A stretch of DNA of 59,344 nucleotides from Oscillospiraceae bacterium (GTDB taxonomy: Bacteria > Bacillota > Clostridia > Oscillospirales > Ruminococcaceae): positions 1-59,344 of the forward strand of contig WRJM01000001.1 of NCBI GenBank assembly GCA_009782265.1, given 5' to 3'. Positions 7,511 through 50,271 of this stretch are shown here, in pieces. How positions within the stretch are numbered: position 1 is the stretch's first letter; each line of letters begins with the position of its first letter. The translations under genes were made by a program, and so were the position numbers. Below the pieces are notes generated by a model. That model searched no databases. It saw only the letters and a program-made list of their open reading frames with translations, and was not told where the DNA came from.

Positions 7511-7870
7511 TCAAGATTTGATTGCGTCTATATAAACATTCACACGCCCTACTTTAATCCCGGTTTCCTCCTCCACCGCATACGTGACTTTGTGCTGTAT
7601 GCTTTTGGTGACGGACGCCGCGTTAATGCCGTAAGTAACCGTAATGTGCAAATCAATGTACAATTGATTCTCAATCAGCTTCACGCTTACGCCTTTATCG
7701 GGTTCTTTCCTGCGCCGCAGAAAGGGCAGGGATTCCGCCATGTTCTGCCATAAAGTGCCGGAATTCATACCTGCCACGCCGTAACAGCCGGCGACTGTGC
7801 CGCCGATGAGCGCGGTGAAGAACCGCTTGGTTATGTTTATACTGCCGAGATGATTATTGATAATAATCAT
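7511..7870 (-). CDS. Asp23/Gls24 family protein (YloU-like)
   Basis: CYGVAGM, IDLHITVTYG, VNVYID; conserved position upstream of the DAK2 gene. Confidence 0.88.
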   Translation of the reverse strand: MIIINNHLGSINITKRFFTALIGGTVAGCYGVAGMNSGTLWQNMAESLPFLRRRKEPDKGVSVKLIENQLYIDLHITVTYGINAASVTKSIQHKVTYAVEEETGIKVGRVNVYIDAIKS

Positions 7871-7924
7871 AATATGCCTGCTTTCTTTTAGTTTAACATG
7901 TATAAAGTGCTTATTATATGCGTA

Positions 7925-8062
7925 TTACTCACTCTTGTCTTTCAATGCCTTTAACTCTTGCTCCAAACTGATAACCTGCTTTTCTATCTTTTTACAATTC
8001 AATGATACAGTTATAATTCCTATCCCTAAAATGACAAGCGGGATTGCCCAAAGAACTTCCAT
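7925..8062 (-). CDS. Small 45-aa single-TM protein (not in the ORF track)
   Basis: GAGAGG 7 nt before ATG; MEVLWAIPLVILGIGIITVSLNCKKIEKQVISLEQELKALKDKSE*. Confidence 0.65.
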   Translation of the reverse strand: MEVLWAIPLVILGIGIITVSLNCKKIEKQVISLEQELKALKDKSE

Positions 8063-8135
8063 ACCGTAACCTCTCTTAATATAAATAAGTTAATATGACT
8101 CTTTATTATTTAATACTATCATACTATAATTTCAA

Positions 8136-8948
8136 TTAATTTTCAAGTCTTTTTACCGGCAAAGCAAGGTACATTTCCGGATAATTCAGTCCGGAAAAGG
8201 CTTTTTCCGCTTGCTGTTTATTTTCAAAAACCCCGAAAACCGCGCTCCCGCTCCCTGTTAAACTTGCGCCCATTGCCCCCGCGCTGATTAAATTCTGCTT
8301 GATTTTTTCGATTTCGGGGTTGTTATAAAGCTTTTCAAAGGCGTTGTATAAGAATAAATCGCCTTTTTCATGGGGAATAAGCGGGTTTTTGTCGTACAAA
8401 GCATACGCTTCCTTTGTTGAACAGGAAAAATCGGGTTTAATAATCACAAAAGCGCAGGTATAATCCGGCAGAGCCTGTGCGATTGTTGCGCCCGTGCCCG
8501 AACAGAAAGCATATCCGCCGTGTATGCAGAAAGGTACGTCCGCACCTATTTCCGCGCCCATTTCAAGCAATTCTTGCAAATTAAAACGATTATCTGCGAT
8601 TTTATTCAGTCCCCGCAGAACCGCCGCCGCGTCCGCGCTTCCTCCGCCAAGCCCCGCCATCAGCGGAATTTTTTTGTTAATTGCAATTTCAGCTTTAACC
8701 TGCTTGCCGATTCTTTGCATGAAAAGCTCTGCCGCTTTAACTGCGGTGTTTGTGCTGTCAGCCGGAACGGCGGGATGATTGCAGACAATGCTGATACCCT
8801 CACCCGCGCTTGCTTTGATTTGCACATCGTCCGCCAAGTCAATCAGCTGCATGGACGTCAGAACATGATGAAGCCCGTTATCAAGCCTACCGGTTATATC
8901 AAGGAACATATTCAATTTTGCGTAAGCTTTTAATGTTATTTTTTTCAT
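8136..8948 (-). CDS. ispE: 4-diphosphocytidyl-2-C-methyl-D-erythritol kinase
   Basis: AYAKLNMFL, KKIPLMAGLGGGSADAAA, GADVPF, LTGSGSAVF. Confidence 0.95.
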   Translation of the reverse strand: MKKITLKAYAKLNMFLDITGRLDNGLHHVLTSMQLIDLADDVQIKASAGEGISIVCNHPAVPADSTNTAVKAAELFMQRIGKQVKAEIAINKKIPLMAGLGGGSADAAAVLRGLNKIADNRFNLQELLEMGAEIGADVPFCIHGGYAFCSGTGATIAQALPDYTCAFVIIKPDFSCSTKEAYALYDKNPLIPHEKGDLFLYNAFEKLYNNPEIEKIKQNLISAGAMGASLTGSGSAVFGVFENKQQAEKAFSGLNYPEMYLALPVKRLEN

Positions 8949-36128: not shown

Positions 36129-36926
36129 TCAATAATTGATTTTGATTTTTTCCGCGTAATAAAACACGAATTCCGTAATCGTCGGCACGCCCTTTAACGG
36201 ATTGATTCTTGCTTTATAATGTTTCTTCAATAACTCAATGTTTGAATTTTTCCATGTGCTGTTAATCGCGTTTTGAACAGAACGTTCAATCGTGGAGGGT
36301 GATTTTTTATATTTCGCGCTTAAATATTTTGAAAGATTAGGTTCGGGATTTGAAATCGTTTTAATAATACCGTCTATTAAATATCTTCTGCCGGACATTT
36401 TATGGCTGACACCGATTAAATCCATTTCGGTGTGAATTTTTTTCAAAAGCTTTTTATCAAGCTCTTCTCTTTCATGTATAGACAAAAAATCACGGGGCGA
36501 AGCGGACATGCTTTTTTTCTTTTTGCCGTGTATTACGCTTTTTACAGACTTGAGAAGTTCGATTACATTTTCGGCATTATAATCATCCTGATATTTAGAC
36601 ATGATAAAATCAGCACCTTGTTCCCTGACTAACTCATGCGTAAGCTTGCTTATATTGTTAGTAGTAATCAGTATATAAGGATAAATTACAGGATTCAATG
36701 CCCGTAATTTTTGCATGAAAAAAATACCGTTGCCGCTTCCGTTATGCAGTTCTATATCAAGAATAACTGCATCCGGAACACAATCGGAAACCAATTCAAT
36801 CGCCATATCAGAGCTGTTCGACACACCGACAAGACGTATACCGTCCGTGTTTTCCGCGCATTTAATTAGATTTTTACATTCCTCGGGGTCGTCTTCCACA
36901 AGCAAAACTCTAAGGTCGTTTTCCAT
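36129..36926 (-). CDS. Spo0A-like response regulator (diverged paralogue)
   Basis: REC domain (VEDD, VILDIEL) plus Spo0A-type C-terminus (LIGV..GRRYL, STIERSVQNAI, KGVPTITEF). Confidence 0.8.
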   Translation of the reverse strand: MENDLRVLLVEDDPEECKNLIKCAENTDGIRLVGVSNSSDMAIELVSDCVPDAVILDIELHNGSGNGIFFMQKLRALNPVIYPYILITTNNISKLTHELVREQGADFIMSKYQDDYNAENVIELLKSVKSVIHGKKKKSMSASPRDFLSIHEREELDKKLLKKIHTEMDLIGVSHKMSGRRYLIDGIIKTISNPEPNLSKYLSAKYKKSPSTIERSVQNAINSTWKNSNIELLKKHYKARINPLKGVPTITEFVFYYAEKIKINY

Positions 36927-36965
36927 AGAAAAGTCCTCCGTCCGAAGCGGGTTTTATTTTAAGTT

Positions 36966-37069
36966 ATACTAATCCCGATTATAAAAGCTCTTAAAAATTT
37001 ATGCAAAAAGCTTGCGTTTATGGGTTTTTGTACGGATTTTTCAGAAAGCTTTTAATGAGGGATTAGTAT
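36966..37069. mobile_element. 104-bp MITE-like palindromic element, copy A
   Basis: Ends atactaatccc/gggattagtat; close to the reverse complement of 49535-49638. Confidence 0.75.
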
Positions 37070-37152
37070 TAATTATATAACAATTTTATTCGTTTTGCAA
37101 TACATTTAAAAATCAAAAACCGCAAACTCGCTTACAATGCGGATTTACGGTT

Positions 37153-37183
37153 TAAGAAAAGAGGGAGGATAGAGGGGCTCGAA
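37153..37183. repeat. att site distal to the tRNA (duplicated tRNA-His 3' end)
   Basis: taagaaaagagggaggatagaggggctcgaa, identical to 46375-46405; imperfect similarity extends ~40 bp to the left. Confidence 0.92.
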
Positions 37184-37298: not shown

Positions 37299-37322
37299 CG
37301 TAAACGCCAAATAAACGCCAAA
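37299..37322. promoter_or_regulatory. Putative integrase arm-type sites
   Basis: cg(taaacgccaaa)x2, identical to 46293-46316. Confidence 0.7.
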
Positions 37323-37415
37323 AATAACAAAAACAATTCAACGGCGTGTTTTTTACTAAAAACTTTTTGCTCCCTTTAAGGGGGCTTTTCTTTGCCTGTT
37401 TATAATAAGTTTACA

Positions 37416-37566: not shown

Positions 37567-37755
37567 CTACGCTTTACCGCTCTTTTTTTCGTTTAAACAG
37601 GATTCAATCATTGAAATAACAACATTATTAAATGATGTGTCGTTGTTTTCGGCGATTTTATTAATTTTTTCTATCAGATTATCGGCAATATATAACGTTT
37701 TATAGGAGCATTTAACCTTTTCTTTGGTCTTTTTCAGCTTCCAGTTCAAAAGCAC
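37567..37755 (-). CDS. Small ribbon-helix-helix-like DNA-binding protein
   Basis: KTLYI strand followed by two helices (LIEKINKIA, SFNNVVISMIESCL); GAAAGGCGG before GTG. Confidence 0.65.
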   Translation of the reverse strand: MLLNWKLKKTKEKVKCSYKTLYIADNLIEKINKIAENNDTSFNNVVISMIESCLNEKKSGKA

Positions 37756-37803: not shown

Positions 37804-37860
37804 TACATTAGAAATATCTAATGTATTTATGTTGACAGCTTTTTTATCCTGTGTTATAAT
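37804..37860 (+). promoter_or_regulatory. Palindromic operator plus consensus sigma-A promoter
   Basis: tacattaga-aata-tctaatgta (37804-37825); TTGACA-17-TATAAT (37832-37860). Confidence 0.7.
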
Positions 37861-38031
37861 TTTAAAAGTAACCCGTCAATATATGACAAATATAAACAAG
37901 AAAAGCAATTAAACGTTTGTAGTTTTATGTGCAATAGTAACAAATCAGAAAAATTCTATAAAAAAATTAGACCTCGCACCCTGCTAAACCGTCTATCTTA
38001 TGAACGGCAAAAAAACCAAAGGAGTAAATCA

Positions 38032-39819
38032 ATGGATAAGAAAAAGTTAACGGAAGTGGTAAAATCTGCGCAAACGGGCGATAACACCGCGCTTGAAACG
38101 CTTTACCGCGAATATACAAAGCCTGTTTATTTTCTCGCTTTAAAAATCTTAGCAAATAAAGAGGATTCGGAAGATATAACGCAGGAAGTATTTATACATA
38201 TGTTTCAAAAAATCGCGGACTTGAAAAATCCTGAAACATTCCCCACTTGGTTAAATCGGATTACTTCAAATAAATGCACTGATTTTTTGAGAAAAAAGCG
38301 TGTAACGCTGAATATTGAAGATGAGGAAATAGCGCAGACAGAATTTTTTGAAGAAAGTGACCCGTTATTAGTCCCCGAAAAAGCACTTGATAACGCCGAA
38401 ACGGTGAAATTAATAACAGATATTATTGATAATTTGCCGCTTCCGCAACGTGTATGTGTCTACTATTATTATTATGAACATCTGACAATCGCGCAAATCG
38501 CTGAAAATCTCGGCGCGAATGAAAGTACGGTAAAAAATCGGCTTGCACTGGCGCGTGAGAAAATCCGAAAAGCAATAGAAAGTCTTGAAAAAAAGGACGG
38601 CATAAAATTATACGGTGTAGTGCCGCTTATGATAACCCCGATACTGCGTATAGCTTTACAGCAGTTTCAAATGCCGCAGGGTTCTGTTAATGAAATGCTC
38701 GGTAATATTACCGCAGAAGTGACCGCGACTGTAGCGGAAACGGCGGGGACAGCTTCTACAACGACTACGGCAACAGCAGGGACGACTTCTACAGCAACCA
38801 CAGGAACAGCAGGGACTACTATTACAACTACTACCGCAACAGCGGGAACTGCTTCAACAGCGACAAGCACCGCAATTTCTATGAAGTCAATAATAGCGTT
38901 AATCGCGGCGATTGCAGTTGTCGCCGGAATTGGTATAACAGCGTTCTTGGTGCTAAATTCGGGGAATGAAGATGTACCCGCAGATTTAGAAGTTGTCGCG
39001 GGAGCAAATGAGGACACCGAAACGCCGGCAGAGCCACTCGAAAATATTATCACAACAGAACCCGAAACAGAGAATATAACAGAAACCGAACCCGAAATAA
39101 TCAAAATTGAGATTGATTTAAGCGGAAAAGATATAACCAATGAACAGTTGGCGGAATTAGTAGCAAACGGAGAAATTCCGAAAAATGTTACACATTTAAA
39201 ATTAGGAATATTCATTGACGAAAAAGCAAAAGATGAGATTACAGAATCTTTTAGCGGACAAGGGTTTTTATCGCAAATGGTATCATCGGCAGAATCATAT
39301 AACCAAATAACCGATATAACACCACTTGCGGAATTAACTGATTTGATTTATTTAGATTTAAGCGGCTCTGGATATTCATTTGGAAATGAATTTGGAAATC
39401 CGCGCCTTGAAGTATTCGGAAATCAAATTATTGATATATCAGCATTAAGTGAATTGACGAATTTAACGCATTTGTATTTGGGAAACAATCAAATTATTGA
39501 TATAGCACCGCTTTCAAGATTAAATAATTTGACAGTGTTGGATTTGGGAAGCAACCAAATCAACGATATAACACCGCTTTCGGAATTAAATAATTTAACA
39601 ACGTTGGACTTGAGGAAAAACGAAATTAATGATATTTCATCACTTACGGAATTGAATTGTTTAACAGAATTGATTTTAAGAAGCAACAAAATAGAAGATG
39701 TTATTTCGCTTGCAGAGTTAATTAATTTAACGGAATTGGATTTGTGGAATTGTACCTTGAATGAAGAAAAGATTAACGCGCTTCAAGCCACATTACCACA
39801 ATGCAATATAAAAAAATAA
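38032..39819 (+). CDS. ECF sigma factor fused to a TM helix and an LRR domain
   Basis: Region 2 (DSEDITQEVFI, FPTWLNRITSNKCTDFLRK), region 4 (LPLPQR, IAQIAENLGANESTVKNRLALAR), TM IIALIAAIAVVAGIGITAFLVL, six 22-aa LRRs; AAGGAG before MDKKK. Confidence 0.88.
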   Translation: MDKKKLTEVVKSAQTGDNTALETLYREYTKPVYFLALKILANKEDSEDITQEVFIHMFQKIADLKNPETFPTWLNRITSNKCTDFLRKKRVTLNIEDEEIAQTEFFEESDPLLVPEKALDNAETVKLITDIIDNLPLPQRVCVYYYYYEHLTIAQIAENLGANESTVKNRLALAREKIRKAIESLEKKDGIKLYGVVPLMITPILRIALQQFQMPQGSVNEMLGNITAEVTATVAETAGTASTTTTATAGTTSTATTGTAGTTITTTTATAGTASTATSTAISMKSIIALIAAIAVVAGIGITAFLVLNSGNEDVPADLEVVAGANEDTETPAEPLENIITTEPETENITETEPEIIKIEIDLSGKDITNEQLAELVANGEIPKNVTHLKLGIFIDEKAKDEITESFSGQGFLSQMVSSAESYNQITDITPLAELTDLIYLDLSGSGYSFGNEFGNPRLEVFGNQIIDISALSELTNLTHLYLGNNQIIDIAPLSRLNNLTVLDLGSNQINDITPLSELNNLTTLDLRKNEINDISSLTELNCLTELILRSNKIEDVISLAELINLTELDLWNCTLNEEKINALQATLPQCNIKK

Positions 39820-39853
39820 AGCAAAAAAATTAAATTTAAAGGGGAATTTCAAA

Positions 39854-41137
39854 ATGAAAATCAAAAAAATCACAGCATTACTCTTGGCTTTATGCCTTAT
39901 CATCGGCTTGACGGCTTGCGGCGGTGATAAACCCGTCGAAAGTTCTTTAAAAAACAACACAACCACAACGACAACGACAAGAGCAAATGAAAACGCTTCG
40001 ACAACAACGCCTGAAGTCATAACCGCGTCTGACCCTGAACCTATAATTAATGTACAAGGGGGTGCTTTTTCGGACGGGGTTGCATGGGTTAAATTAAATA
40101 AAGGGCAATGGCACTGTTTGGATAAAACAGGAACGGTTTTATTTGAATTAGAAGAAAATCACGGACCTGCATCTGATTTTTTAAATGGTACTGCTTGGGT
40201 GCAATCCAACGGGAAAACAATTGGATTGGTTGATAAAACCGGAAAAATAATTCCTGTACCGGAATCAAACGAATACGACGAGATATTTATGTTTATTTAC
40301 GGAGCGGATTTAATGTTTGTTAAAAAACATATTGAAACTTTTGAAGTGACCGAAGACAGAGTCGGGTTGATTGATATTAACGGGAATTGGAAAGTAGAAT
40401 TGAGCAACGATATTGTTTGGACTGCTCTTTTAGAGGAAGGAGATTTTAAATATTTAGGTGAGGGTTTTGTGAGTAAAACAACAGGGTTATTAGGTTCTTC
40501 TACATATCTCTACAATATTTCTGAATGTAAAGCTCTCGGAAAAATATATGACATGAGTGCAGTTTATTTTTATAATAATCGTCCCGCTCATCTTGAAAAA
40601 ATGGAAAACGGTATCGGATTTTACAGCGATGACGGTTTTATATATTATGTTGATAAATCAGGCACAACAACAAAACTTGGCGGTCAATTTATGGATACTG
40701 TTTTAGGAAACTACAGTAACGAACTGTTTTATGCGGAATTCAAAACAGGGTTTATTTCAGAAACAAATCGTGGGTTTTATGATGTTGAGGGGAATATTAT
40801 AATAGACCTTTCAGAGTACGATGTTGAGATTCACCCTGATAAACCTGAATTTATAGACGGGTATTGCTTACTTTCTATGAAGAATCCGCAAGGCAGTGAA
40901 TATTACACTATTATTGATAAAACAGGTAAGCAAATGTTTGAACCTAAACTTTACAATTACAACATAAAGTATAACGGTGGCGGGGTATACACGGAAGAGA
41001 ATACTCTTTTTAACATTAACGGTGAAATGATAGCTGAAATTGAGGGCGATGTATCATTTTTCTGCGAGGGTATTGCTGTGGTCAATATAAATAATGAATT
41101 TTATTATATTGACACATCAGGGAAGCGGTTGTTCTAA
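39854..41137 (+). CDS. WG-repeat lipoprotein
   Basis: Lipobox LTAC; Thr-rich linker; repeats FSDGVAWV, FLNGTAWV, FIDGYCLL, FCEGIAVV with (Y/L)IDxxG motifs. Confidence 0.8.
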   Translation: MKIKKITALLLALCLIIGLTACGGDKPVESSLKNNTTTTTTTRANENASTTTPEVITASDPEPIINVQGGAFSDGVAWVKLNKGQWHCLDKTGTVLFELEENHGPASDFLNGTAWVQSNGKTIGLVDKTGKIIPVPESNEYDEIFMFIYGADLMFVKKHIETFEVTEDRVGLIDINGNWKVELSNDIVWTALLEEGDFKYLGEGFVSKTTGLLGSSTYLYNISECKALGKIYDMSAVYFYNNRPAHLEKMENGIGFYSDDGFIYYVDKSGTTTKLGGQFMDTVLGNYSNELFYAEFKTGFISETNRGFYDVEGNIIIDLSEYDVEIHPDKPEFIDGYCLLSMKNPQGSEYYTIIDKTGKQMFEPKLYNYNIKYNGGGVYTEENTLFNINGEMIAEIEGDVSFFCEGIAVVNINNEFYYIDTSGKRLF

Positions 41138-41159
41138 ATAAGGAAATCTGAATTAAATA

Positions 41160-41190
41160 AAAGCGACACCTTAACCCGGGTGTCGCTTTT
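41160..41190 (+). terminator. Intrinsic terminator after the lipoprotein
   Basis: aaagcgacacc/ggtgtcgcttt stem. Confidence 0.75.
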
Positions 41191-41268
41191 GGTTATTAAG
41201 TCTTTACAGATTTAAAGGATTGTGATATAATTATAATGTAGATAAATTAAGAATGGGAGAGGTTTAAC

Positions 41269-41934
41269 ATGAATTTATTTAGAAAAATTAAAGACTTTTT
41301 TAATAAGTTAATAAAAAATCTTCGGGCTGAACTACACAGAGAACACGGAGGGTTTTTACATGTAGAGAATATTATAGCGGAATTGAAAAAACAAGTAAAT
41401 AAATATAACAATGCTCGGTTAAAATTCGTTGAAAAGGTAAAGGAATATAAATCACATTGCTCTCTTTATATTATAGATAATCCTAATTTAACAGAAAATT
41501 TTAAAAAATCCGAAAAGGAATTTAAAGAAACGGAAATGTGGTGCAGAGAAGCAATAAAAGAAATATTACGCAATCTAACCTTTTGGGATGTTTTATATGT
41601 ACTAATGATAAAATATAAAAAAGAGAAAACAAAAGAACAAGTTGCTTATACAACGGCAGTTGAAAAACACTTTTCAATGAGTAGAATTTATAATTCTAAA
41701 AAAGGGAAAGAAATATTTAATGCGTATTATGCAATTGTGCTTATAATTGTACTCAAAGTAAATATTATAGTTGCCGAAGTATGGCTAAATAAAATAAATT
41801 ATTCGTTTTCATATGATAACGAAGCAGATATTTTTATTTACGAAAAAATAAAGGAAGAAAAGCACTCGTTTATAAATGATGATGATTTAGAATATATTCG
41901 GAATCGGAATTATACTTATAAATTTATAAATTAA
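41269..41934 (+). CDS. Hypothetical AT-rich cargo protein
   Basis: 221-aa ORF, GGGAGAGG RBS, upstream TTTACA-17-TATAAT. Confidence 0.7.
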   Translation: MNLFRKIKDFFNKLIKNLRAELHREHGGFLHVENIIAELKKQVNKYNNARLKFVEKVKEYKSHCSLYIIDNPNLTENFKKSEKEFKETEMWCREAIKEILRNLTFWDVLYVLMIKYKKEKTKEQVAYTTAVEKHFSMSRIYNSKKGKEIFNAYYAIVLIIVLKVNIIVAEVWLNKINYSFSYDNEADIFIYEKIKEEKHSFINDDDLEYIRNRNYTYKFIN

Positions 41935-42509: not shown

Positions 42510-43031
42510 ATGTTTTATTTCAAATCGGGCGTTATCGGGATAACCAATAATAGGTACAAACTTTTACTGGTTATCGCGTACACGGTGACGGCTTCCATTA
42601 TGGGGTATAAGCTGTACAACGCTTTACCCTCCGGTATACCGTTCTATTTTATAATCGAAAAAATCATCACCACTTTAATTGTATCTGTCGGCACGGCGGG
42701 GTTGATATTTTTGATTAAATTCATTGGGAGGCTTCAAACGCGGAAGTATCAAGATGATTTTTTAAGAATCCACCTTAAAAATGGGCTTGGTGAAACGCCG
42801 CAACGGTTATCTAAACGACGCGACAAGGAAACAAAAAAGGGCTTTATCATTACATTTGATAACGCACGGATAAGTATTGAGGATTTTGATAATAAAACCG
42901 CTGACCTTAACAACATTTTAAATGCGGAAGTTTACCACATGGAATATAGCAAAACTCTGCGAAAAACCCTTGTTTACGCTCGCAAATACAAAAAAATAAA
43001 AGTCGGGGAGGTTTTAGATGATGAAGTATAA
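42510..43031 (+). CDS. Two-TM membrane protein (possible anchor for the FtsK-like ATPase)
   Basis: GAAAGGA before MFYFK; two hydrophobic segments; overlaps the next gene. Confidence 0.65.
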   Translation: MFYFKSGVIGITNNRYKLLLVIAYTVTASIMGYKLYNALPSGIPFYFIIEKIITTLIVSVGTAGLIFLIKFIGRLQTRKYQDDFLRIHLKNGLGETPQRLSKRRDKETKKGFIITFDNARISIEDFDNKTADLNNILNAEVYHMEYSKTLRKTLVYARKYKKIKVGEVLDDEV

Positions 43032-43785
43032 CCAAAACGCTCCCACCCTCTCTCTCGGTTATGACCTTGATTTATTGGAGCGGGGCGAAAAATCTAAAAT
43101 TATGCTTAACCTTTCCCGTTCTCAAAACACTCATTTGTTGTGTATCGGGCAGTCAGGAAGCGGGAAAAGTTATTCCTTAATTAGTTACCTGTCAAAACTA
43201 TCATTGGCAGAACCGCAGGGGGAAATTTTGTTTGCAGATTTCAAGGGCGAATTTGAGTGGCTTAGCGGCTGTCCTCGCTACTTTCCTTACAAGAACGCAT
43301 ACAACGCTGTTGAAATTGCCTACAATATGTTGTCTGCTCGATTATCGGGTGATGATGTGTCGGAAAATCCCTTGACCTTTATTTTCGACGAATATGTAAG
43401 CGCGATACTAAGCCAAACGGCAGAGGATAAAAAAGCCGCCGCACTGACTATGAGTAAAATATCAGAAATTTTACTAATGGGTAGAGCTTGCGGGCGCGCT
43501 TCCGTCCGATTCTGGTGTTTTACCCAGAGATGCGATAGTTTAGTTTTTCCTGTTGGCTCAAGGGAGCAGTTCGGGGGTGCAGTAATAGCCCTCGGAATGG
43601 TTAGTAAGGAAGCAAAACAAATGATGTTCAGTGATTTTACAGAAGATTTTAAGGGCAGAATACTTGGACGTGGCGAAGGCAGAGTTATATTAAATGGTTC
43701 TACCCTCCGACATGTCAAAATAGGGCAAATCAACACGGATAAGGCGCAAGCCTTATGTAAAGCGGCTTTGTTAAAACCACTATAA
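43018..43785 (+). CDS. FtsK/SpoIIIE-like (TcpA-type) ATPase
   Basis: HLLCIGQSGSGKS Walker A, DFKG, FIFDE Walker B, GRACG, FTQR, GRGEG. Confidence 0.82.
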   Translation: MMKYNQNAPTLSLGYDLDLLERGEKSKIMLNLSRSQNTHLLCIGQSGSGKSYSLISYLSKLSLAEPQGEILFADFKGEFEWLSGCPRYFPYKNAYNAVEIAYNMLSARLSGDDVSENPLTFIFDEYVSAILSQTAEDKKAAALTMSKISEILLMGRACGRASVRFWCFTQRCDSLVFPVGSREQFGGAVIALGMVSKEAKQMMFSDFTEDFKGRILGRGEGRVILNGSTLRHVKIGQINTDKAQALCKAALLKPL

Positions 43786-43798
43786 CAAGTAATCGCAG

Positions 43799-43863
43799 GG
43801 CTTCCGCACCGTGAAGCGGAGCGAAAACGGCGCGGAAGCCGCTACTTTTAACTTGATTGTAGC
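43799..43863 (+). other. Candidate double-strand origin/oriT
   Basis: 14-bp stem ggcttccgcaccgt/acggcgcggaagcc, then gctac-loop-gtagc with AACTTGAT in the loop, just upstream of rep. Confidence 0.6.
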
Positions 43864-43899
43864 AGAAAAAGGGCGAAGCTGAAAATTTGGGGGTGAACA

Positions 43900-44856
43900 A
43901 TGCGAAAATATAAAAGCGTTGATAGCGTTTATATTCCCGACAATGACCCTGTGACGGTGAAATTCTGCGGAAACGTCATTGAAATTAAATACGCCAGTCA
44001 CCGCAACTCGGAAGCCCATATAAAAAAGCTCGATAAAGATTGCTACATAAAATTATCTGAAAACACAGGTGAGGTTTACGAGTTTAAACACGGAGAGAAC
44101 AGGCTAAACGATACAATCAGCGTTAAAAGAAGCCTTGAAGAATTGCGGGATTATATCAACACCAATGTTATAAATACTGTAAACTGTAAATGGTTGACAT
44201 TAACTTATGCGGAAAATATGACAGAACCGAAACGGTTAAAAGATGATTTCAAGGAGTTTAACAGATTATGCCGTAACCAATACGGACACTATGAATATAT
44301 CACGGCGGCAGAACCTCAACAGCGCGGCGCATGGCATTTACACGTCATATTAATATTCGATAAACCCGCGCCGTATATGAGAAATTCAGAGGTTTGCGCT
44401 TTATGGGGTCAAGGGTTCGTAAATGTCCGCAAACTCAATGAGGTTGACAATATAGGAATGTACTTAACGGCATATTTGGCGGATTTACCGCTTGATGAAG
44501 CAATTCAAAACACAAAAAATATATTGGCTTTAAAAGTTGAAAATGTGAAAATGGTTGAGAGCGTAAACAAAAACGGCAAAATGGAAACCAAAGCATACAT
44601 AAAGGGCGAACGTATGAAGATGTACCCGCGCGGATTTCATATACACCGCGAAAGCAGGGGAATCAAAAAGCCCGAAAAAATAAAAATGAAAAACTCCGAA
44701 GCCGCGAAAATAGTTAAGGATTATAACAAAATATACGAAAAAAGCGTTGAAATAACTGATGAAGATAACAGCTTCACTGTGGTGACAAACAAGCGGGTTT
44801 ATAACAAGAACCCGCACGCTAAGAAATTTTTGAAAGGTGGTGCAGATGATGAGTAA
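43900..44856 (+). CDS. Rolling-circle HUH endonuclease (Rep/relaxase)
   Basis: Motif I WLTLTY, motif II EPQQRGAWHLHVIL, motif III YLTAYL. Confidence 0.88.
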   Translation: MRKYKSVDSVYIPDNDPVTVKFCGNVIEIKYASHRNSEAHIKKLDKDCYIKLSENTGEVYEFKHGENRLNDTISVKRSLEELRDYINTNVINTVNCKWLTLTYAENMTEPKRLKDDFKEFNRLCRNQYGHYEYITAAEPQQRGAWHLHVILIFDKPAPYMRNSEVCALWGQGFVNVRKLNEVDNIGMYLTAYLADLPLDEAIQNTKNILALKVENVKMVESVNKNGKMETKAYIKGERMKMYPRGFHIHRESRGIKKPEKIKMKNSEAAKIVKDYNKIYEKSVEITDEDNSFTVVTNKRVYNKNPHAKKFLKGGADDE

Positions 44857-45022
44857 ACCTAAAATGCTTACAATTGATGAAGCCGCCGCTTTGGTGGACG
44901 GTTTAACAAAATTTCGTATACGTCAGATGTGTATTGATGGAATACTCCCGCATATAAAGGCGGGGAAAAAATACTTAATCAATCAAAGTATTTTATTTGA
45001 AAAAATCGGCGAAAAAATTTAA
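44846..45022 (+). CDS. xis: Excisionase-like HTH protein
   Basis: MLTIDEAA...IRQMCIDGILPHIKAGKKYLI; directly upstream of the integrase. Confidence 0.82.
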   Translation: MMSKPKMLTIDEAAALVDGLTKFRIRQMCIDGILPHIKAGKKYLINQSILFEKIGEKI

Positions 45023-45051
45023 TAAAACCTTGTATTAATCGGTGTTTAGGC

Positions 45052-45080
45052 TTGACATTGCTACTAAAATATGTTATAAT
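45052..45080 (+). promoter_or_regulatory. Consensus sigma-A promoter of the integrase
   Basis: TTGACA-17-TATAAT with extended TG. Confidence 0.8.
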
Positions 45081-45135
45081 AACAGTAGTAAAAAACACGC
45101 CATACACCGATTAAGTTTAAGGAGGACTTAGTAGT

Positions 45136-46308
45136 ATGGCAACAATTCAAAAAAGAGGTAATACCTACAAAATAACCGTTTCCACTGGCTACAATGCAAA
45201 CGGACAGCAAGTAAGGCAGTATAAAACATGGAAGCCGCAAGGAGGCATGACGGAAAAGCAGATTGAAAAAGAGGTCAACCGTCAAGCGGTATTGTTTGAG
45301 GAAGATTGTTTGAACGGTCAGATTACGGCGGCGGTCAAGTTTGAGGATTTCGCTTGTCAATGGTTCAAAGAGTATGCGGAAATTAAGTTGAAAACTCAAA
45401 CGCTCCGTAATTATCACTTTGCAGAAAAAAGGATTTATAAAGCAATAGGATTTTTGAGAATGGATAAAATTACCCCGCGAAATATCCAAAAATACATACT
45501 TGACCTTAATCAAACAGGATTAGCACCAAAAACAATTAAAAATCATATCTGCCTTATTTCCTCAATCTTCAATTATGCGGTTAAAATGCAACAAATTGCT
45601 TTTAATCCCTGCACCAATGTTACAATCCCGCGACAAGAGCAAAAAGACAAAGAGATTTATACGCTTGAAGAAACGCAAAACCTGCTTGATTTACTTTCTA
45701 AAGAGGACACAAACGATTTTAAATTTACGGTTTTCTTTACTCTCGCAATTTTTACAGGGCTAAGGCGCGGGGAACTGTTAGGGCTTGAATGGCAGGACTT
45801 CAACATGGAAAATAATGTTGTTTCCATTAATCGCACGTCAAACTGGACGAAAGAGCGCGGAGTATACACCGATACCCCAAAAACGCAGTCAAGCCGCCGA
45901 AGCATAAAACTTCCCGTCGAGATTATACGATTTTTGCAAAACTTCCGCGAACATCAAAACACGGAAAAGGAACTAATAGGTGATAAATGGGAAGAAAACA
46001 ACCGCCTTTTCACACAATGGAACGGCGCGCCCATGAGTACAAATGCCCCTTGCGCCTATTTCAGAAGATTTTGCAAACGTACAGGCATACGTTATGTAAA
46101 TATTCATTCTTGGCGGCATTTCAACGCTTCGGTGTTGATTTTCAAAGGTGTTGATGTTAAATCGGTTCAAAGCCATTTAGGACATTCTTCCGCTAATACC
46201 ACGCTTTCTATTTACTGCCATGAGTTTCAAGCCGCACAAGCTGTAGCAATGGAAGCACTGACAAGTGTAATAAGTTTACAGGGATTAGGAAGCGTAAACG
46301 CCAAATAA
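45136..46308 (+). CDS. int: Tyrosine recombinase/integrase
   Basis: TGLRRGELLGL, TPKT, HSWRH, LGHSS, TLSIYCH catalytic residues; N-terminal arm-binding domain. Confidence 0.96.
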   Translation: MATIQKRGNTYKITVSTGYNANGQQVRQYKTWKPQGGMTEKQIEKEVNRQAVLFEEDCLNGQITAAVKFEDFACQWFKEYAEIKLKTQTLRNYHFAEKRIYKAIGFLRMDKITPRNIQKYILDLNQTGLAPKTIKNHICLISSIFNYAVKMQQIAFNPCTNVTIPRQEQKDKEIYTLEETQNLLDLLSKEDTNDFKFTVFFTLAIFTGLRRGELLGLEWQDFNMENNVVSINRTSNWTKERGVYTDTPKTQSSRRSIKLPVEIIRFLQNFREHQNTEKELIGDKWEENNRLFTQWNGAPMSTNAPCAYFRRFCKRTGIRYVNIHSWRHFNASVLIFKGVDVKSVQSHLGHSSANTTLSIYCHEFQAAQAVAMEALTSVISLQGLGSVNAK

Positions 46309-46385
46309 ACGCCAAACAGCAAAAACGCTAAAAAGCAAAAACCGCAAACCCGTTTTAAATGCGGATTTACGGTCTAAGAAAAGAG

Positions 46386-46459
46386 GGAGGATAGAGGGGC
46401 TCGAACCCTCGACCTTCAGAGCCACAATCTGACGCGCTACCAACTACGCTATATCCTCC
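46386..46459 (-). tRNA. tRNA-His (GTG)
   Basis: Cloverleaf GGAGGATA..TCAGA-TT-GTG-GC-TCTGA..TTCGAGC..TATCCTCC with the His-type G-1:C73 pair; CCA not encoded. Confidence 0.95.
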
Positions 46460-46830: not shown

Positions 46831-47082
46831 CAACTTTTTAATAAACCTTTTTTAATCATACAAATTAATTGTATTTATATCATCGTTATTTGGTTATTTC
46901 GCCGATTTTTTGATTTTAAAGCTTTTGCTGATGAATATTTCCTTGCAATTATGGGTTTGTTTATGATATTATGGATATATAATTATTTAGGCACACTGTA
47001 TATTGATTTTTTACTTGATTTATACGACCTACAACAGCGTGCCGCAAATTACTTTAAATTAATTTTGAAAGGAATTTTAGGC

Positions 47083-47772
47083 ATGGCAGACGATGTAAAG
47101 AAAGGTTTTATAACCCCGGCAGTTCCCGTGGCAGTTAAGCCCGCAGAAACCGCCGCTCCCGTAGCTCCGGCGGTGAAACCCGCCGTAGCAAAACCCGCCG
47201 AAAAAGCACCCGCAGTAAAAAAAGCTGTTGCAAAAAAACCCGCAGTTAAAAAAGCAACCGCAAAACCCGCCGCAGCAAAACCCGCGGCAAAAAAACCTGT
47301 AGCAAAAAAAGCAGCCGCAAAACCCGCAACTAAAGTTACGGCTAAAAAAGCAACCGCAAAACCCGCAACTAAAGTTGCGGCTAAAAAAGCAGCCGCAAAA
47401 CCCGTAGCTAAAGTTGCAGCAAAAGGCGGCAGGAAAAAGGCTGTTCCCAACATTGATTCTATCACCACGGCTCTTTGGAAGAAAATCGGAAAAGCCAATG
47501 TTAAAAACATGGAAGCACCTATTGCTATCCAAGTGATTATCAACGATTTAGGTACATTCTTTGTGGCAATCAAAGACGACGGCGACGGCAAAAAGCCGCA
47601 CATCATCCAAGCGATTTATGACGACCGCGATGGCACCTTGGAAACATCCTACGACGAGATGATAAAAATCGCAAACGGAAAGTACGACTTCCTGACCGCG
47701 ATTACTAAAGGCACAGTGCGTTATTCCGGCGACATCAGAAAAGCAATTATTCTTGCAGGTTTATTCAAATAA
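47083..47772 (+). CDS. Ala/Lys/Pro-repeat (histone H1-like) protein with SCP2-like C-terminal domain
   Basis: GAAAGGA before MADDV; AKPAAKK repeats; C-terminus AIQV..GTFFVAIK..KIANGKYDFLTAITKGTVRYSGDI. Confidence 0.75.
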   Translation: MADDVKKGFITPAVPVAVKPAETAAPVAPAVKPAVAKPAEKAPAVKKAVAKKPAVKKATAKPAAAKPAAKKPVAKKAAAKPATKVTAKKATAKPATKVAAKKAAAKPVAKVAAKGGRKKAVPNIDSITTALWKKIGKANVKNMEAPIAIQVIINDLGTFFVAIKDDGDGKKPHIIQAIYDDRDGTLETSYDEMIKIANGKYDFLTAITKGTVRYSGDIRKAIILAGLFK

Positions 47773-48345: not shown

Positions 48346-49563
48346 TTGAGTAATTCAAACAATCCAAACGAAATCATCTACTTAGATAACGCCGCCACAA
48401 CCCGTATCAGCCCTGCTGTTCTTAACGCAATACAGCCGTATTTGAATGAGCTTTACGGCAACGCTTCCTCTCTTTATTCGCTCGGCAGAGAAAGCGCAAA
48501 GACTTTGGAAAAAGCGCGTACTGATATTGCAGAAGCAATTCACTGCGAACCGCGTGAAATTTTCTTCACGAGCGGCGGCAGTGAAAGCAACAACTGGGCA
48601 ATCAAAAGCGCGGCAATGCTTATAGCAAAGCAAGGCAAAAAGCATATTATCACCTCCGCTTTTGAACATCACGCGGTTTTGCATGTGCTTGCAGGATTAG
48701 AAAAACAAGGTTTTGAAGTAACAGCTCTGCCTGTTTACAAAGAGGGTATTGTCCGCGTTTCGGACTTGGAAAAAGCCCTTTCAGAACACCCCGACACCGG
48801 ACTTGTTACAATCATGTACGTCAATAACGAAATAGGTACAATCCAGCCGATTTCGGAATTAGCAGAATTATGCCGGACACGCGGTGTTTGGTTTCACACT
48901 GACGCGGTTCAGGCACTCGGCAATATCCCCGTAAACATAGAAAAATTAAATGTTGGTTTTCTCTCGCTTTCAGGGCATAAAGTCCACGCTATGAAAGGCG
49001 TTGGGTTGTTATATGTAAATAAAAAAATCCTTCTTCCCGCTTTGATTGAGGGCGGCGCGCAGGAACGCGGCTTCCGCGCAGGTACGGAAAACATCGCGGG
49101 AATTGCGGGCTTCGCGGCAGCTGTAAAAGAAGCTGTAATCAACATGGAAACCAAAAACGCAAAACTTCTGCCTTTTCGCGAAAAATTATATAACAGTATA
49201 ATGAAACTTGAAAGAGTTCATCTTAACGGCGATTACGAACAGCGGACAATCAATAATCTAAATTTCTCTTTTGAGGGGATTGAGGGGGAAGCCCTGCTTC
49301 TGCATTTAGACTTAGCAGGGATTTGCTGTTCAAGCGGTTCAGCGTGTACTTCGGGTTCGCTTGACCCGTCACATGTATTGCTTGCTTTAGGTTTACCGCA
49401 CGAAATCGCGCACGGTTCACTGCGGATTTCCATGTCGGAATACACCACGGAAGCAGAAATTGACAGGTTTCTTGAAGTTCTGCCCGGGATTGTCAAAAAA
49501 CTGCGGGATATGTCGCCGCTTTGGGAGATTATTAATACTAATCTCTCATTAAAAGCTTTCTAA
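48346..49563 (+). CDS. iscS: Cysteine desulfurase IscS/NifS
   Basis: YLDNAATT, FTSGGSESNN, HTDAVQ, SGHK, SSGSACTSGS. Confidence 0.95.
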   Translation: MSNSNNPNEIIYLDNAATTRISPAVLNAIQPYLNELYGNASSLYSLGRESAKTLEKARTDIAEAIHCEPREIFFTSGGSESNNWAIKSAAMLIAKQGKKHIITSAFEHHAVLHVLAGLEKQGFEVTALPVYKEGIVRVSDLEKALSEHPDTGLVTIMYVNNEIGTIQPISELAELCRTRGVWFHTDAVQALGNIPVNIEKLNVGFLSLSGHKVHAMKGVGLLYVNKKILLPALIEGGAQERGFRAGTENIAGIAGFAAAVKEAVINMETKNAKLLPFREKLYNSIMKLERVHLNGDYEQRTINNLNFSFEGIEGEALLLHLDLAGICCSSGSACTSGSLDPSHVLLALGLPHEIAHGSLRISMSEYTTEAEIDRFLEVLPGIVKKLRDMSPLWEIINTNLSLKAF

Positions 49564-49638
49564 AAAACCCGCACAAAAACCCATAAACTCAAGCTTTTTG
49601 CACGGGTTTTTAAGAGCTTTTATAATCGGGATTAGTAT
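49535..49638. mobile_element. 104-bp MITE-like element, copy B (contains the iscS stop)
   Basis: atactaatctc...gggattagtat; inverted relative to copy A. Confidence 0.75.
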
Positions 49639-49664
49639 AAGAAAAACGAAAGGAACTGAAAATA

Positions 49665-50096: not shown

Positions 50097-50139
50097 AAAG
50101 CATGAATAAATTTCCTGTTTTTGTTAATAATTAATTGTA

Positions 50140-50243
50140 ATACTAATCCCTCATTAAAAGCTTTCTTATAAATCTGCACAAGAATCCATATATGCAAGAT
50201 TTTTGCACAGATTTATAATAGCTTTTATATTCGGTATTAATAT
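50140..50243. mobile_element. 104-bp MITE-like element, copy C (diverged)
   Basis: atactaatccctcattaaaagctttc..., colinear with copy B. Confidence 0.7.
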
Positions 50244-50271
50244 AATTATTAATGAAATGAGGAATTTATCA

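What the first reader, a model, noticed from the sequence alone, without database searches (positions are those of the whole stretch)
37969..41190. Membrane-tethered ECF sigma-LRR one-component sensor with WG-repeat lipoprotein partner (best candidate for a new system)
Seen: one 595-aa polypeptide with complete sigma regions 2 and 4, a Thr/Ala/Gly-rich repetitive linker (TAGT units), one TM helix, an acidic ETEPE stalk and six 22-aa internalin-like LRRs. No separate anti-sigma gene is present. The next gene, 34 bp away, is a WG-repeat lipoprotein, followed by a terminator. An ECF-style promoter AGACC-16-CGTCTA (37969-37995) lies just upstream of the RBS. Known: most ECF sigmas are held by a separate anti-sigma, some groups carry TM-linked C-terminal extensions, and LRRs bind proteins. 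Inference: the exterior LRR, perhaps with the lipoprotein, senses a protein ligand, proteolysis releases the sigma, and it auto-activates; the module travels on a mobile element. Similar fusions may exist in related Clostridia, so novelty of the architecture is unverified.
Basis: partly seen in the sequence, partly recalled or inferred. Interest (0 to 1): 0.75.

Follow-up and report, generated by a model that had tools for sequence, protein, structure and literature searches.

The report
Self-locking membrane-anchored sigma factor receptor
This gene joins a transcription-starting sigma factor, a predicted built-in inhibitor, one membrane helix and a likely outside-facing leucine-rich-repeat domain in one protein; it is one member of a large gut-Clostridia family with interchangeable outer domains that likely switches on its own neighbouring surface-protein gene, a design known in outline from other bacteria.

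Summary
The fusion is real: one 595-aa ORF with sigma2, sigma4, a Thr/Ala/Gly linker, one TM helix and an LRR domain. It recurs in 17 other proteins held. The LRR is not the defining part: the same sigma head and TM carry outer domains that fall into 83 sequence clusters, and the LRR is scattered over the tree. New here: a conserved two-helix segment after sigma4 is predicted to bind sigma4 and the RNAP-binding face of sigma2 (score 0.81, best control 0.01), like the class II anti-sigma CnrY, so the anti-sigma is likely fused in cis. The proposed promoter is supported: a matching motif precedes 19 of 25 held-out relatives. The WG lipoprotein is not a conserved partner (no homologue in the other loci); the +1 gene is usually some exported protein. 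This copy sits in a 9.2-kb integrative element at tRNA-His; its closest relative shown does not. Release by proteolysis and the ligand are untested. Closest known: ECF262 (membership untestable here), IutY, ECF52. The scan noted similar clostridial fusions on other DNA. New variant of a known kind.

The parts
37107..37183 (.). Left att copy of the integrative element (includes the 3' fragment of tRNA-His)
   Evidence: 77-nt direct repeat, 92% identical to 46329-46405 (D9, 62); tRNA-His at 46385-46458
37832..37860 (+). Consensus sigma-70-type promoter (12 of 12, TG extended); likely basal expression of the operon
   Evidence: consensus match only, 15 weaker-or-equal sites found against 14.8 expected in the region
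37969..37995 (+). ECF-type promoter AGACC-16-CGTCTA, likely recognised by this sigma
   Evidence: related motif upstream of 19 of 25 held-out relatives
38032..39819 (+). ECF sigma / predicted anti-sigma / TM / LRR fusion gene, 595 aa (P0001)
38101..38565 (+). Sigma region 2 (aa 24-90) through region 4 (aa 128-178)
   Evidence: Pfam PF04542, PF08281
38599..38625 (+). Conserved hinge motif G-x-K-L-Y-x-x-x-P (aa 190-198); role unknown, not in the predicted interface
   Evidence: G190 99%, K192 83%, L193 100%, Y194 85%, P198 96% of 94 aligned sequences
38629..38730 (+). Two-helix segment (aa 200-233), predicted fused anti-sigma domain
   Evidence: AF2 helices 201-211 and 218-238; complex score 0.81 against best control 0.01
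38731..38877 (+). Thr/Ala/Gly low-complexity linker, four 33-nt repeats
   Evidence: (D8); AF2 pLDDT 38-48
38890..38955 (+). Single predicted TM helix (aa ~287-308), N-in by the positive-inside rule
   Evidence: hydropathy 2.75; net charge +1 before, -9 after
38965..39096 (+). Acidic Glu/Thr/Pro stalk
   Evidence: sequence
39100..39816 (+). Internalin-type LRR outer domain: cap, six repeats (one irregular), cap
   Evidence: Pfam LRR_4 87.7 bits; DNA repeats D3
39854..41137 (+). WG-repeat lipoprotein (P0002), likely co-transcribed target gene; not a conserved partner
41159..41196 (.). Intrinsic-terminator-like hairpin, likely usable in both directions
43018..46308 (+). Element backbone: P-loop ATPase (HerA/FtsK-like), Rep ORF2/G2P, excisionase-like gene, tyrosine integrase
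   Evidence: Pfam DUF87, PF23343, PF00589; TIGR01764 at 27.4 bits, just under its 28.8 cut-off
46329..46458 (-). Right att copy and intact tRNA-His (insertion site)

Best explanation
The gene encodes an ECF sigma factor fused in one chain to a predicted two-helix anti-sigma segment, a flexible linker, one membrane helix and a likely external LRR domain, and it likely works as a self-inhibited membrane receptor that would be released by regulated proteolysis to transcribe its own promoter and the exported protein behind it. Shown: the ORF and its domains, the family, the swapped outer domains, the conserved upstream motif, and the enrichment of exported +1 genes. Predicted: helix 201-211 contacts sigma4 and region 2.1, and helix 218-233 covers region 2.2, the RNAP-binding face (about 0.75). 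Inferred: basal synthesis from the sigma-70-type promoter; ligand binding or damage at the LRR or stalk allows site-1 cleavage; an RseP-type protease cuts the Gly-rich helix; the cis inhibitor is then cut off or displaced, perhaps at the conserved G-x-K-L-Y-x-x-x-P hinge; the free sigma drives a positive loop and the local surface-protein gene. Autoregulation about 0.85; proteolytic release about 0.5; ligand unknown, probably a protein or surface polymer.
For: Architecture: 221 of 231 proteins scoring at least 120 bits on the head profile have a TM after the head, and 91 of the 100 new ones from the search without a length filter. N-in charge bias in 124 of 131. Complex score 0.81 against best control 0.01; the mark was reached by 116 of 157 solved complexes and 2 of 215 mismatched pairs; runs agree in at least 78% of contacts; partner pLDDT at least 73. 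The contact pattern matches the description of CnrY: first helix on sigma4, second on sigma2 (PMC7406223, passages). Most interface positions of the segment keep hydrophobic residues across 94 sequences. Promoter: 19 of 25 held-out loci at p<0.05, 17 of them 23-48 nt before the start; the held-out C33 paralogue site is joint top of 238 genome hits. +1 gene with an N-terminal hydrophobic segment or lipobox in 33 of 42, against 359 of 1397 genes in the genome. TM has Gly-Gly in 113 of 185 against 14 of 104 control helices. RseP-like and ClpX/ClpP-like ORFs are in the genome by motif. Precedent: IutY is released by Prc and RseP (PMC5411451, abstract and passages).
Against: No experiment and no cleavage site. 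The closed sigma2/sigma4 shape is not diagnostic: the sigma-only control folds the same way (pTM 0.72; 153-154 residues at 4.1-4.3 A on SigW-RsiW; against 49, 56). The complex pass may reflect likeness to solved sigma/anti-sigma complexes, and the two pieces are parts of one chain. A covalently attached inhibitor is hard to remove by processive ClpXP without destroying the sigma, and the small-residue linker next to it would be gripped weakly (PMC6677533, abstract), so the last step is unexplained. The motif regex matched only 1 of 43 distant relatives. No PrsW-like site-1 protease was found by a crude motif (genome 88.5% complete). The head profile includes the hinge, which favours motif-bearing hits, and at this threshold 2 of 11 matches in other genomes had short open frames.
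Confidence: 0.5

Rival explanations
1. Membrane release alone is enough: the segment after sigma4 is a structural or modulating extension that stays attached, as in ECF41/ECF42, and the tether is the real inhibitor, as in IutY.
For: IutY truncations are constitutively active and the released ~23 kDa fragment works. In ECF41, removing the proximal extension inactivates the sigma (Text S2 passages). The most conserved extension residues (190-198) are not in the predicted inhibitory interface. A weakly gripped linker would let a sigma-plus-extension fragment survive ClpXP (inference).
Against: The predicted second helix covers residues 47-59 of region 2.2, which would block RNAP core binding while it stays bound.
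Confidence: 0.22
2. No proteolysis: the sigma acts while tethered. The long linker lets it reach RNAP and DNA, and ligand-driven clustering or pulling lifts the inhibitory helices.
For: The linker keeps its Ala/Thr/Gly/Ser make-up (35/16/14/9%) and has a median length of 59 residues. Tethered activators such as ToxR and CadC exist (recalled, from no call).
Against: A disordered linker transmits force or shape poorly. The Gly-rich helix suits intramembrane cleavage. The tested ECF fusion IutY uses proteolysis.
Confidence: 0.13
3. One reading: the LRR and the WG lipoprotein form a dedicated co-receptor that defines a new mobile system.
For: The genes are adjacent, 34 nt apart, share one terminator and lie inside one element. 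In 3 of 42 loci the +1 protein shares a domain with the sigma's own outer domain, against 26 of 3444 cross pairs, so local pairing can occur.
Against: No P0002 homologue in any other of the 104 loci scanned. The three genomes with a P0002 match among 300 others showed no sigma gene among the longest ORFs of the ~3-kb loci. The other LRR-bearing members have different +1 genes.
Confidence: 0.1
4. Artefact: a chance fusion or assembly error joining separate sigma and surface-protein genes.
For: Single-member cluster from one MAG; the LRR part has lower GC (0.317) than the head (0.382), which fits a past domain swap.
Against: 17 other proteins hold head plus LRR in one chain; a second assembly reads through with no gap; two paralogues in this genome have the same plan.
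Confidence: 0.02

Closest known systems
ECF262 (Casas-Pastor et al. 2021, PMC7826278; Supplementary Text S2 passages read)
   Same: Clostridiales; C-terminal extension with TM helices in some members; varied extension domains including low-complexity and zinc-binding hits; no anti-sigma gene nearby; members sometimes in consecutive loci (here L020, L030, L073).
   Different: The description rests on ten proteins from representative organisms, names no LRR or anti-sigma-like helices, and says promoters are not conserved, whereas the close clade here has a conserved motif. Sequence membership could not be tested.
IutY of Pseudomonas putida (ECF243; PMC5411451 abstract and passages)
   Same: Sigma, one TM helix and an external sensor in one chain; model for release by site-1 and RseP cleavage.
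   Different: Gram-negative, FecR-type periplasmic domain, needs a TonB-dependent receptor; the passages read describe no cytoplasmic inhibitor segment or long linker.
ECF48/ECF52/ECF53 (SCO4117; PMC5826349 abstract; PMC8999054 section 3.5)
   Same: Sigma fused to an anti-sigma-like cytoplasmic part, a TM helix and an external binding domain; proteolytic activation proposed.
   Different: Actinobacteria only; zinc-finger domain, whereas this segment has no Cys or His; carbohydrate-binding outer domains.
Class II anti-sigma CnrY with CnrH (PDB 4cxf; PMC7406223 passages)
   Same: Two helices around a closed sigma: first on sigma4, second on sigma2, as predicted here.
   Different: CnrY is a separate protein; here the helices are in cis. 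No sequence similarity was tested or is claimed.
ECF57 and ECF220 (Text S2 passages)
   Same: TM-bearing C-terminal extensions, repeat-type domains in some, membrane release proposed for ECF57.
   Different: Planctomycetes and Polyangiaceae; ECF57 has about two TM helices.

Membership tests
ECF (group 4) sigma factor | sigma2 and sigma4 present, no sigma3 | tested here: met
   PF04542 54.1 bits, PF08281 48 bits, no sigma3 family among the 12 listed; TIGR02937 102.5 bits against cut-off 42.9
ECF262 | Core sigma scores against the ECF262 group HMM or falls in its clade | not testable with these tools
   No group HMMs or member sequences available; supplementary tables S1-S5 were not readable (0 rows)
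ECF262 | Clostridiales host | tested here: met
   Closest named relatives are Oscillospiraceae/Ruminococcaceae records
ECF262 | C-terminal extension with TM helix; no anti-sigma gene in context | tested here: met
ECF262 | Members sometimes in consecutive loci | tested here: met
   3 of 42 +1 genes are another family sigma; not so in this window
ECF262 | Target promoter not conserved | tested here: inconclusive
   Conserved in the close clade (19 of 25) but 1 of 43 by regex in distant members
ECF48/52/53 | Zinc-finger anti-sigma domain in the extension | tested here: not met
   No Cys or His in residues 184-282
ECF48/52/53 | Actinobacterial host | tested here: not met
   Relatives are Clostridia
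IutY / ECF243 | FecR-type external domain and TonB-dependent receptor | tested here: not met
   Outer domain is LRR; no FecR family listed; the +1 gene is a WG-repeat lipoprotein
Class II anti-sigma (CnrY-like) | Two helices, first on sigma4, second on the RNAP-binding face of sigma2 | tested here: met
   Prediction only: contacts 147/148/144 with 201-205 and 47-59 with 222-226; score 0.81 against 0.01
Class II anti-sigma (CnrY-like) | Inhibits transcription by its sigma | not testable with these tools
   Needs a truncation or reporter assay
Integrative mobilizable element | Integrase, flanking att repeats at a tRNA 3' end, excisionase | tested here: met
Integrative mobilizable element | Relaxase or oriT, and excision | tested here: inconclusive
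   Rep ORF2/G2P and a P-loop ATPase are present; no relaxase family named; excision not shown

The most novel reading that the evidence does not exclude
This is a large, uncharacterised clostridial family of plug-and-play receptors: a constant cytoplasmic unit (ECF sigma locked by a cis class-II-like anti-sigma, a conserved G-x-K-L-Y-x-x-x-P hinge and a low-grip linker) joined to freely swapped outer domains, each switching on the surface proteins encoded behind it. It would need an undescribed release step, such as a dedicated cut at the hinge or stalled AAA+ processing, because the sigma must shed an inhibitor that is part of its own chain.
Probability: 0.25. Interest if true: 0.72.

Novelty: new variant of a known kind. 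Interest (0 to 1): 0.47.

Why it matters
Sigma/anti-sigma hybrids are known from few tested cases, and the clostridial group closest to this one (ECF262) has a short description and no tested member in the papers read. This locus gives a testable package: a predicted inhibitory interface with named residues, a conserved promoter for a reporter, and evidence that the outer domain is swapped repeatedly. If the model holds, it shows how gut Clostridia link sensing of outside proteins or polymers to expression of surface proteins with one gene, and it offers a modular receptor scaffold for synthetic biology. The LRR-plus-lipoprotein pairing itself is not the important part.

Tried and rejected
1) Closed sigma conformation as evidence of autoinhibition: rejected, because the sigma-only control folds the same. 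2) WG lipoprotein as conserved partner: rejected; no LRR-lipoprotein complex was predicted, the one job went to sigma plus extension. 3) Wider regulon: a PWM scan gave 238 hits, mostly not near starts; a regex gave 139 matches, 3 intergenic and upstream of an ORF: the C33 paralogue and two unconvincing. The window's own site was lost in that filter because it used the upstream in-frame ATG at 37927. No motif was seen upstream of four other LRR genes. The C17 paralogue has the -10 element without a matching -35. 4) Start at ATG 37927 (630 aa): rejected; it precedes the promoter, and homologues start at 38032. 5) Covariation of -10 variants (CGTC, CGCC, TATC, CATC) with the sigma2 loop: only suggestive and confounded by kinship. 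6) Signal-peptidase site after the TM: 45 of 185 against 18 of 104 controls, weak. 7) PrsW motif search: two hits, both apparently other enzymes. 8) Excision joint or empty site: none among the joints listed; contigs cannot show absence. The G018 locus fetched for the empty site (L124) was not analysed. No RNA holder listed. 9) ECF262 sequences: tables unreadable; cluster names for 10 proteins gave no Ruminococcus albus record. 10) Literature: 'ECF262' gave 6 papers, one relevant, a review table; searches listed no paper on a clostridial sigma-TM-LRR fusion; Text S2 has one unrelated 'leucine' hit. Most subscription papers are not in the library. 11) The small upstream partner gene from note e1-5211022: short ORFs are visible before distant members L036, L038 and L039, with no convincing tblastn hit in this genome. 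12) The tree is the quick version; the careful search did not finish. Its 56 rows were chosen by me from the 231.
Full report
Observation. The ORF at 38032-39819 encodes 595 residues without a stop. Pfam places sigma2 at 24-90, sigma4 at 128-178 and LRRs at 459-584. A Thr/Ala/Gly linker, one hydrophobic helix, an acidic stalk and six LRR units (five in exact register, one offset) follow. The lipoprotein gene starts 34 nt later and a strong hairpin ends the unit. The proposed promoter is at 37969-37995. A contig from a second assembly, possibly of the same sample, covers the whole gene with one synonymous change and no gap.

Family. The first search returned full-length sigma-plus-LRR proteins and proteins with the same head but other tails. 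This genome has two paralogues: one with a Thr-rich, Cys-containing tail, one with DUF5050 repeats. A profile of 16 heads was run on three collections. Of 318 proteins then held, 231 scored at least 120 bits and 221 of these had a TM after the head; 8 of the 10 without are 328 residues or shorter. Searches were length-filtered and hold near-duplicates; among the 100 new proteins from the unfiltered search, 91 had the TM. The charge bias points N-in for 124 of 131. The family is patchy: 9 of 150 other genomes of the same family at E 1e-45 and 11 of 398 in the class at 1e-40, two of those with short frames. Named members include Flavonifractor, Pseudoflavonifractor and Oscillospiraceae; weaker relatives with a TM lie on Clostridium and Paraclostridium plasmids. 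The one DNA run holding nearly all of this stretch is a termite gut metagenome.

The outer domain is swapped. The 217 outer domains of at least 60 residues fall into 83 BLAST clusters, 18 in the internalin-type LRR cluster. Among 65 proteins scanned, others carry BspA LRR, DUF5050, DUF6273, RCC1, TPR, VWA, Ig-like, Listeria-Bacteroides repeat or SLH domains, and many have no Pfam match outside the sigma. On a quick tree of 56 chosen heads the LRR label needs 15 changes, against 14.8 for shuffled labels, with at least 8 forced by well-supported branches. The nearest heads show it directly: P0004 (86%) has an extra domain and a short LRR, and P0006 (78%) has DUF5050.

A built-in anti-sigma. After sigma4 comes a conserved G-x-K-L-Y-x-x-x-P hinge and two amphipathic helices. 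AlphaFold2 models residues 201-230 at pLDDT 93. Folded as separate chains, residues 187-242 bind the sigma core with score 0.81 against a best control of 0.01; the mark was reached by 116 of 157 solved complexes and 2 of 215 mismatched pairs; runs agree in at least 78% of contacts, partner pLDDT at least 73. The first helix touches sigma4 (144, 147, 148) and region 2.1; the second covers 47-59 of region 2.2. A paper describes the same order of contacts for CnrY on CnrH (PMC7406223, passages). Two cautions. The pass may come from likeness to solved sigma/anti-sigma complexes. The closed sigma shape (153 residues at 4.1 A on SigW-RsiW, about 26 A on holoenzyme forms) also appears without the extension, so it is no support.

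Promoter and targets. A strict pattern matched 9 of 27 upstream regions against 0.19 in shuffles; the pattern was drawn from these loci. A matrix trained on 8 sites then scored 19 of 25 new loci above 40 shuffles each, 17 of them 23-48 nt before the start, mostly with a 16-nt spacer. These loci are kin, so they are not independent. The C33 paralogue site, not used in training, is joint top of 238 genome hits. Distant members mostly lack the motif (1 of 43). No wider regulon was found. In 83 dereplicated family genes from 104 loci (three from this genome), 42 had a +1 gene: 29 with an N-terminal hydrophobic segment, 4 lipoprotein-like, 3 another family sigma, 6 neither; the genome baseline is 359 of 1397. 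None resembled the WG lipoprotein. In 3 of 42 the +1 protein shares a domain with the sigma's own outer domain. The lipoprotein is best read as this copy's local target.

Mobile context. A 77-nt repeat at 37107-37183 and 46329-46405 overlaps the 3' end of tRNA-His and brackets an integrase, an excisionase-like gene, a Rep ORF2/G2P protein and a P-loop ATPase. GC inside is 0.373 against 0.474 on the left flank. The operon is cargo. L027 shares the promoter and head (75.6% DNA identity over 37959-38719) but has different neighbours and no integrase in its flanks.

Mechanism. I commit to a self-inhibited receptor released by regulated intramembrane proteolysis (0.5). The TM has Gly-Gly in 113 of 185 members against 14 of 104 controls, which may include spurious ORFs; that helix-weakening residues favour site-2 cleavage is established knowledge, recalled. 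RseP-like and ClpXP-like ORFs are present by motif. IutY is the tested precedent (PMC5411451, abstract and passages). The weak step is shedding a covalently attached inhibitor. ClpX grips small and polar residues poorly (PMC6677533, abstract), so the linker could stall it before the helices. That favours either a separate cut at the hinge or the rival in which membrane release is enough. The ligand is unknown.

Comparison and novelty. ECF262 fits by host, architecture, missing anti-sigma gene and tandem loci (PMC7826278: main-text passages, and 62 of 64 'C-terminal extension' places of Text S2 plus the first two). Membership needs the group HMM, and the supplementary tables that I could not read may bear on it. 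It is not ECF48/52/53 (PMC8999054 section 3.5 and tables; PMC5826349 abstract) or ECF243. PMC7593790 was read as passages only. Searches listed no paper on this fusion, its inhibitor segment or its promoter. Earlier scan notes report similar clostridial fusions on other DNA; the sequence look-up found none close to this protein. Verdict: a new variant of a known kind, interest 0.47.

Noticed in passing
window 36960-37078 (also 49528-49640 and 50138-50245): A ~110-nt interspersed, partly palindromic repeat with about 40 BLAST matches across the genome at 72-98% identity; looks like a REP- or MITE-type element. One copy lies just outside the left att site, one directly before the C45 LRR genes.
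   Followed up: partly
window 37299-37331 and 46293-46325: A 33-nt direct repeat (88%) inside each end of the element, likely integrase arm-type sites (D20).
   Followed up: no
window 37567-37755 (-): 62-aa ORF divergent from the sigma operon; looks like a small ribbon-helix-helix regulator by eye; no NCBIfam match.
   Followed up: partly
window 36129-36926 (-): Spo0A-like response regulator (receiver plus Spo0A_C) with low GC (0.366), just outside the element.
   Followed up: no
window 41269-41934 (+): 221-aa ORF with GC 0.25 and no clear family, preceded by an 11-of-12 sigma-70-type promoter at 41203-41231; second cargo gene.
   Followed up: partly
window 46951-47772 (+): Histone-H1-like Lys/Ala/Pro repeat region fused to an SCP2-like domain; a same-genus genome matches the C-terminal part only.
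   Followed up: partly
G000 C33:3287-5008 (-) and C17:3040-5904 (-): Two paralogous sigma-TM fusions with other outer domains; C33 has the same promoter type and a secreted +1 gene, so cross-talk between paralogues is possible.
   Followed up: yes
G000 C34:5550-6938 (-); L023:4933-5895 and 7849-8877: TIR-like domain (motif recognised by eye) + TM + stalk + LRR protein in this genome; in L023 similar TIR-like TM genes flank the sigma-LRR gene, and one starts with a piece of the sigma N-terminus. The cytoplasmic output domain may also be swappable, giving Toll-like-receptor-shaped proteins.
   Followed up: no
L025:5995-9745, L021:524-3649, L024:5995-9162: The +1 exported protein shares a domain with the sigma's own outer domain (87% over 184 aa in L025), suggesting local duplication as the route of domain swapping.
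   Followed up: partly
L036, L038, L039 upstream of the sigma gene: Short 39-42-aa ORFs directly before distant family members; L038 and L039 resemble each other.
   Followed up: partly
L129, L130, L131: Distant relatives (131-152 bits) with a TM on Clostridium baratii and Paraclostridium plasmids, next to LRR, Ig-like, LPXTG, SLH or DUF5011 surface-protein genes.
   Followed up: partly
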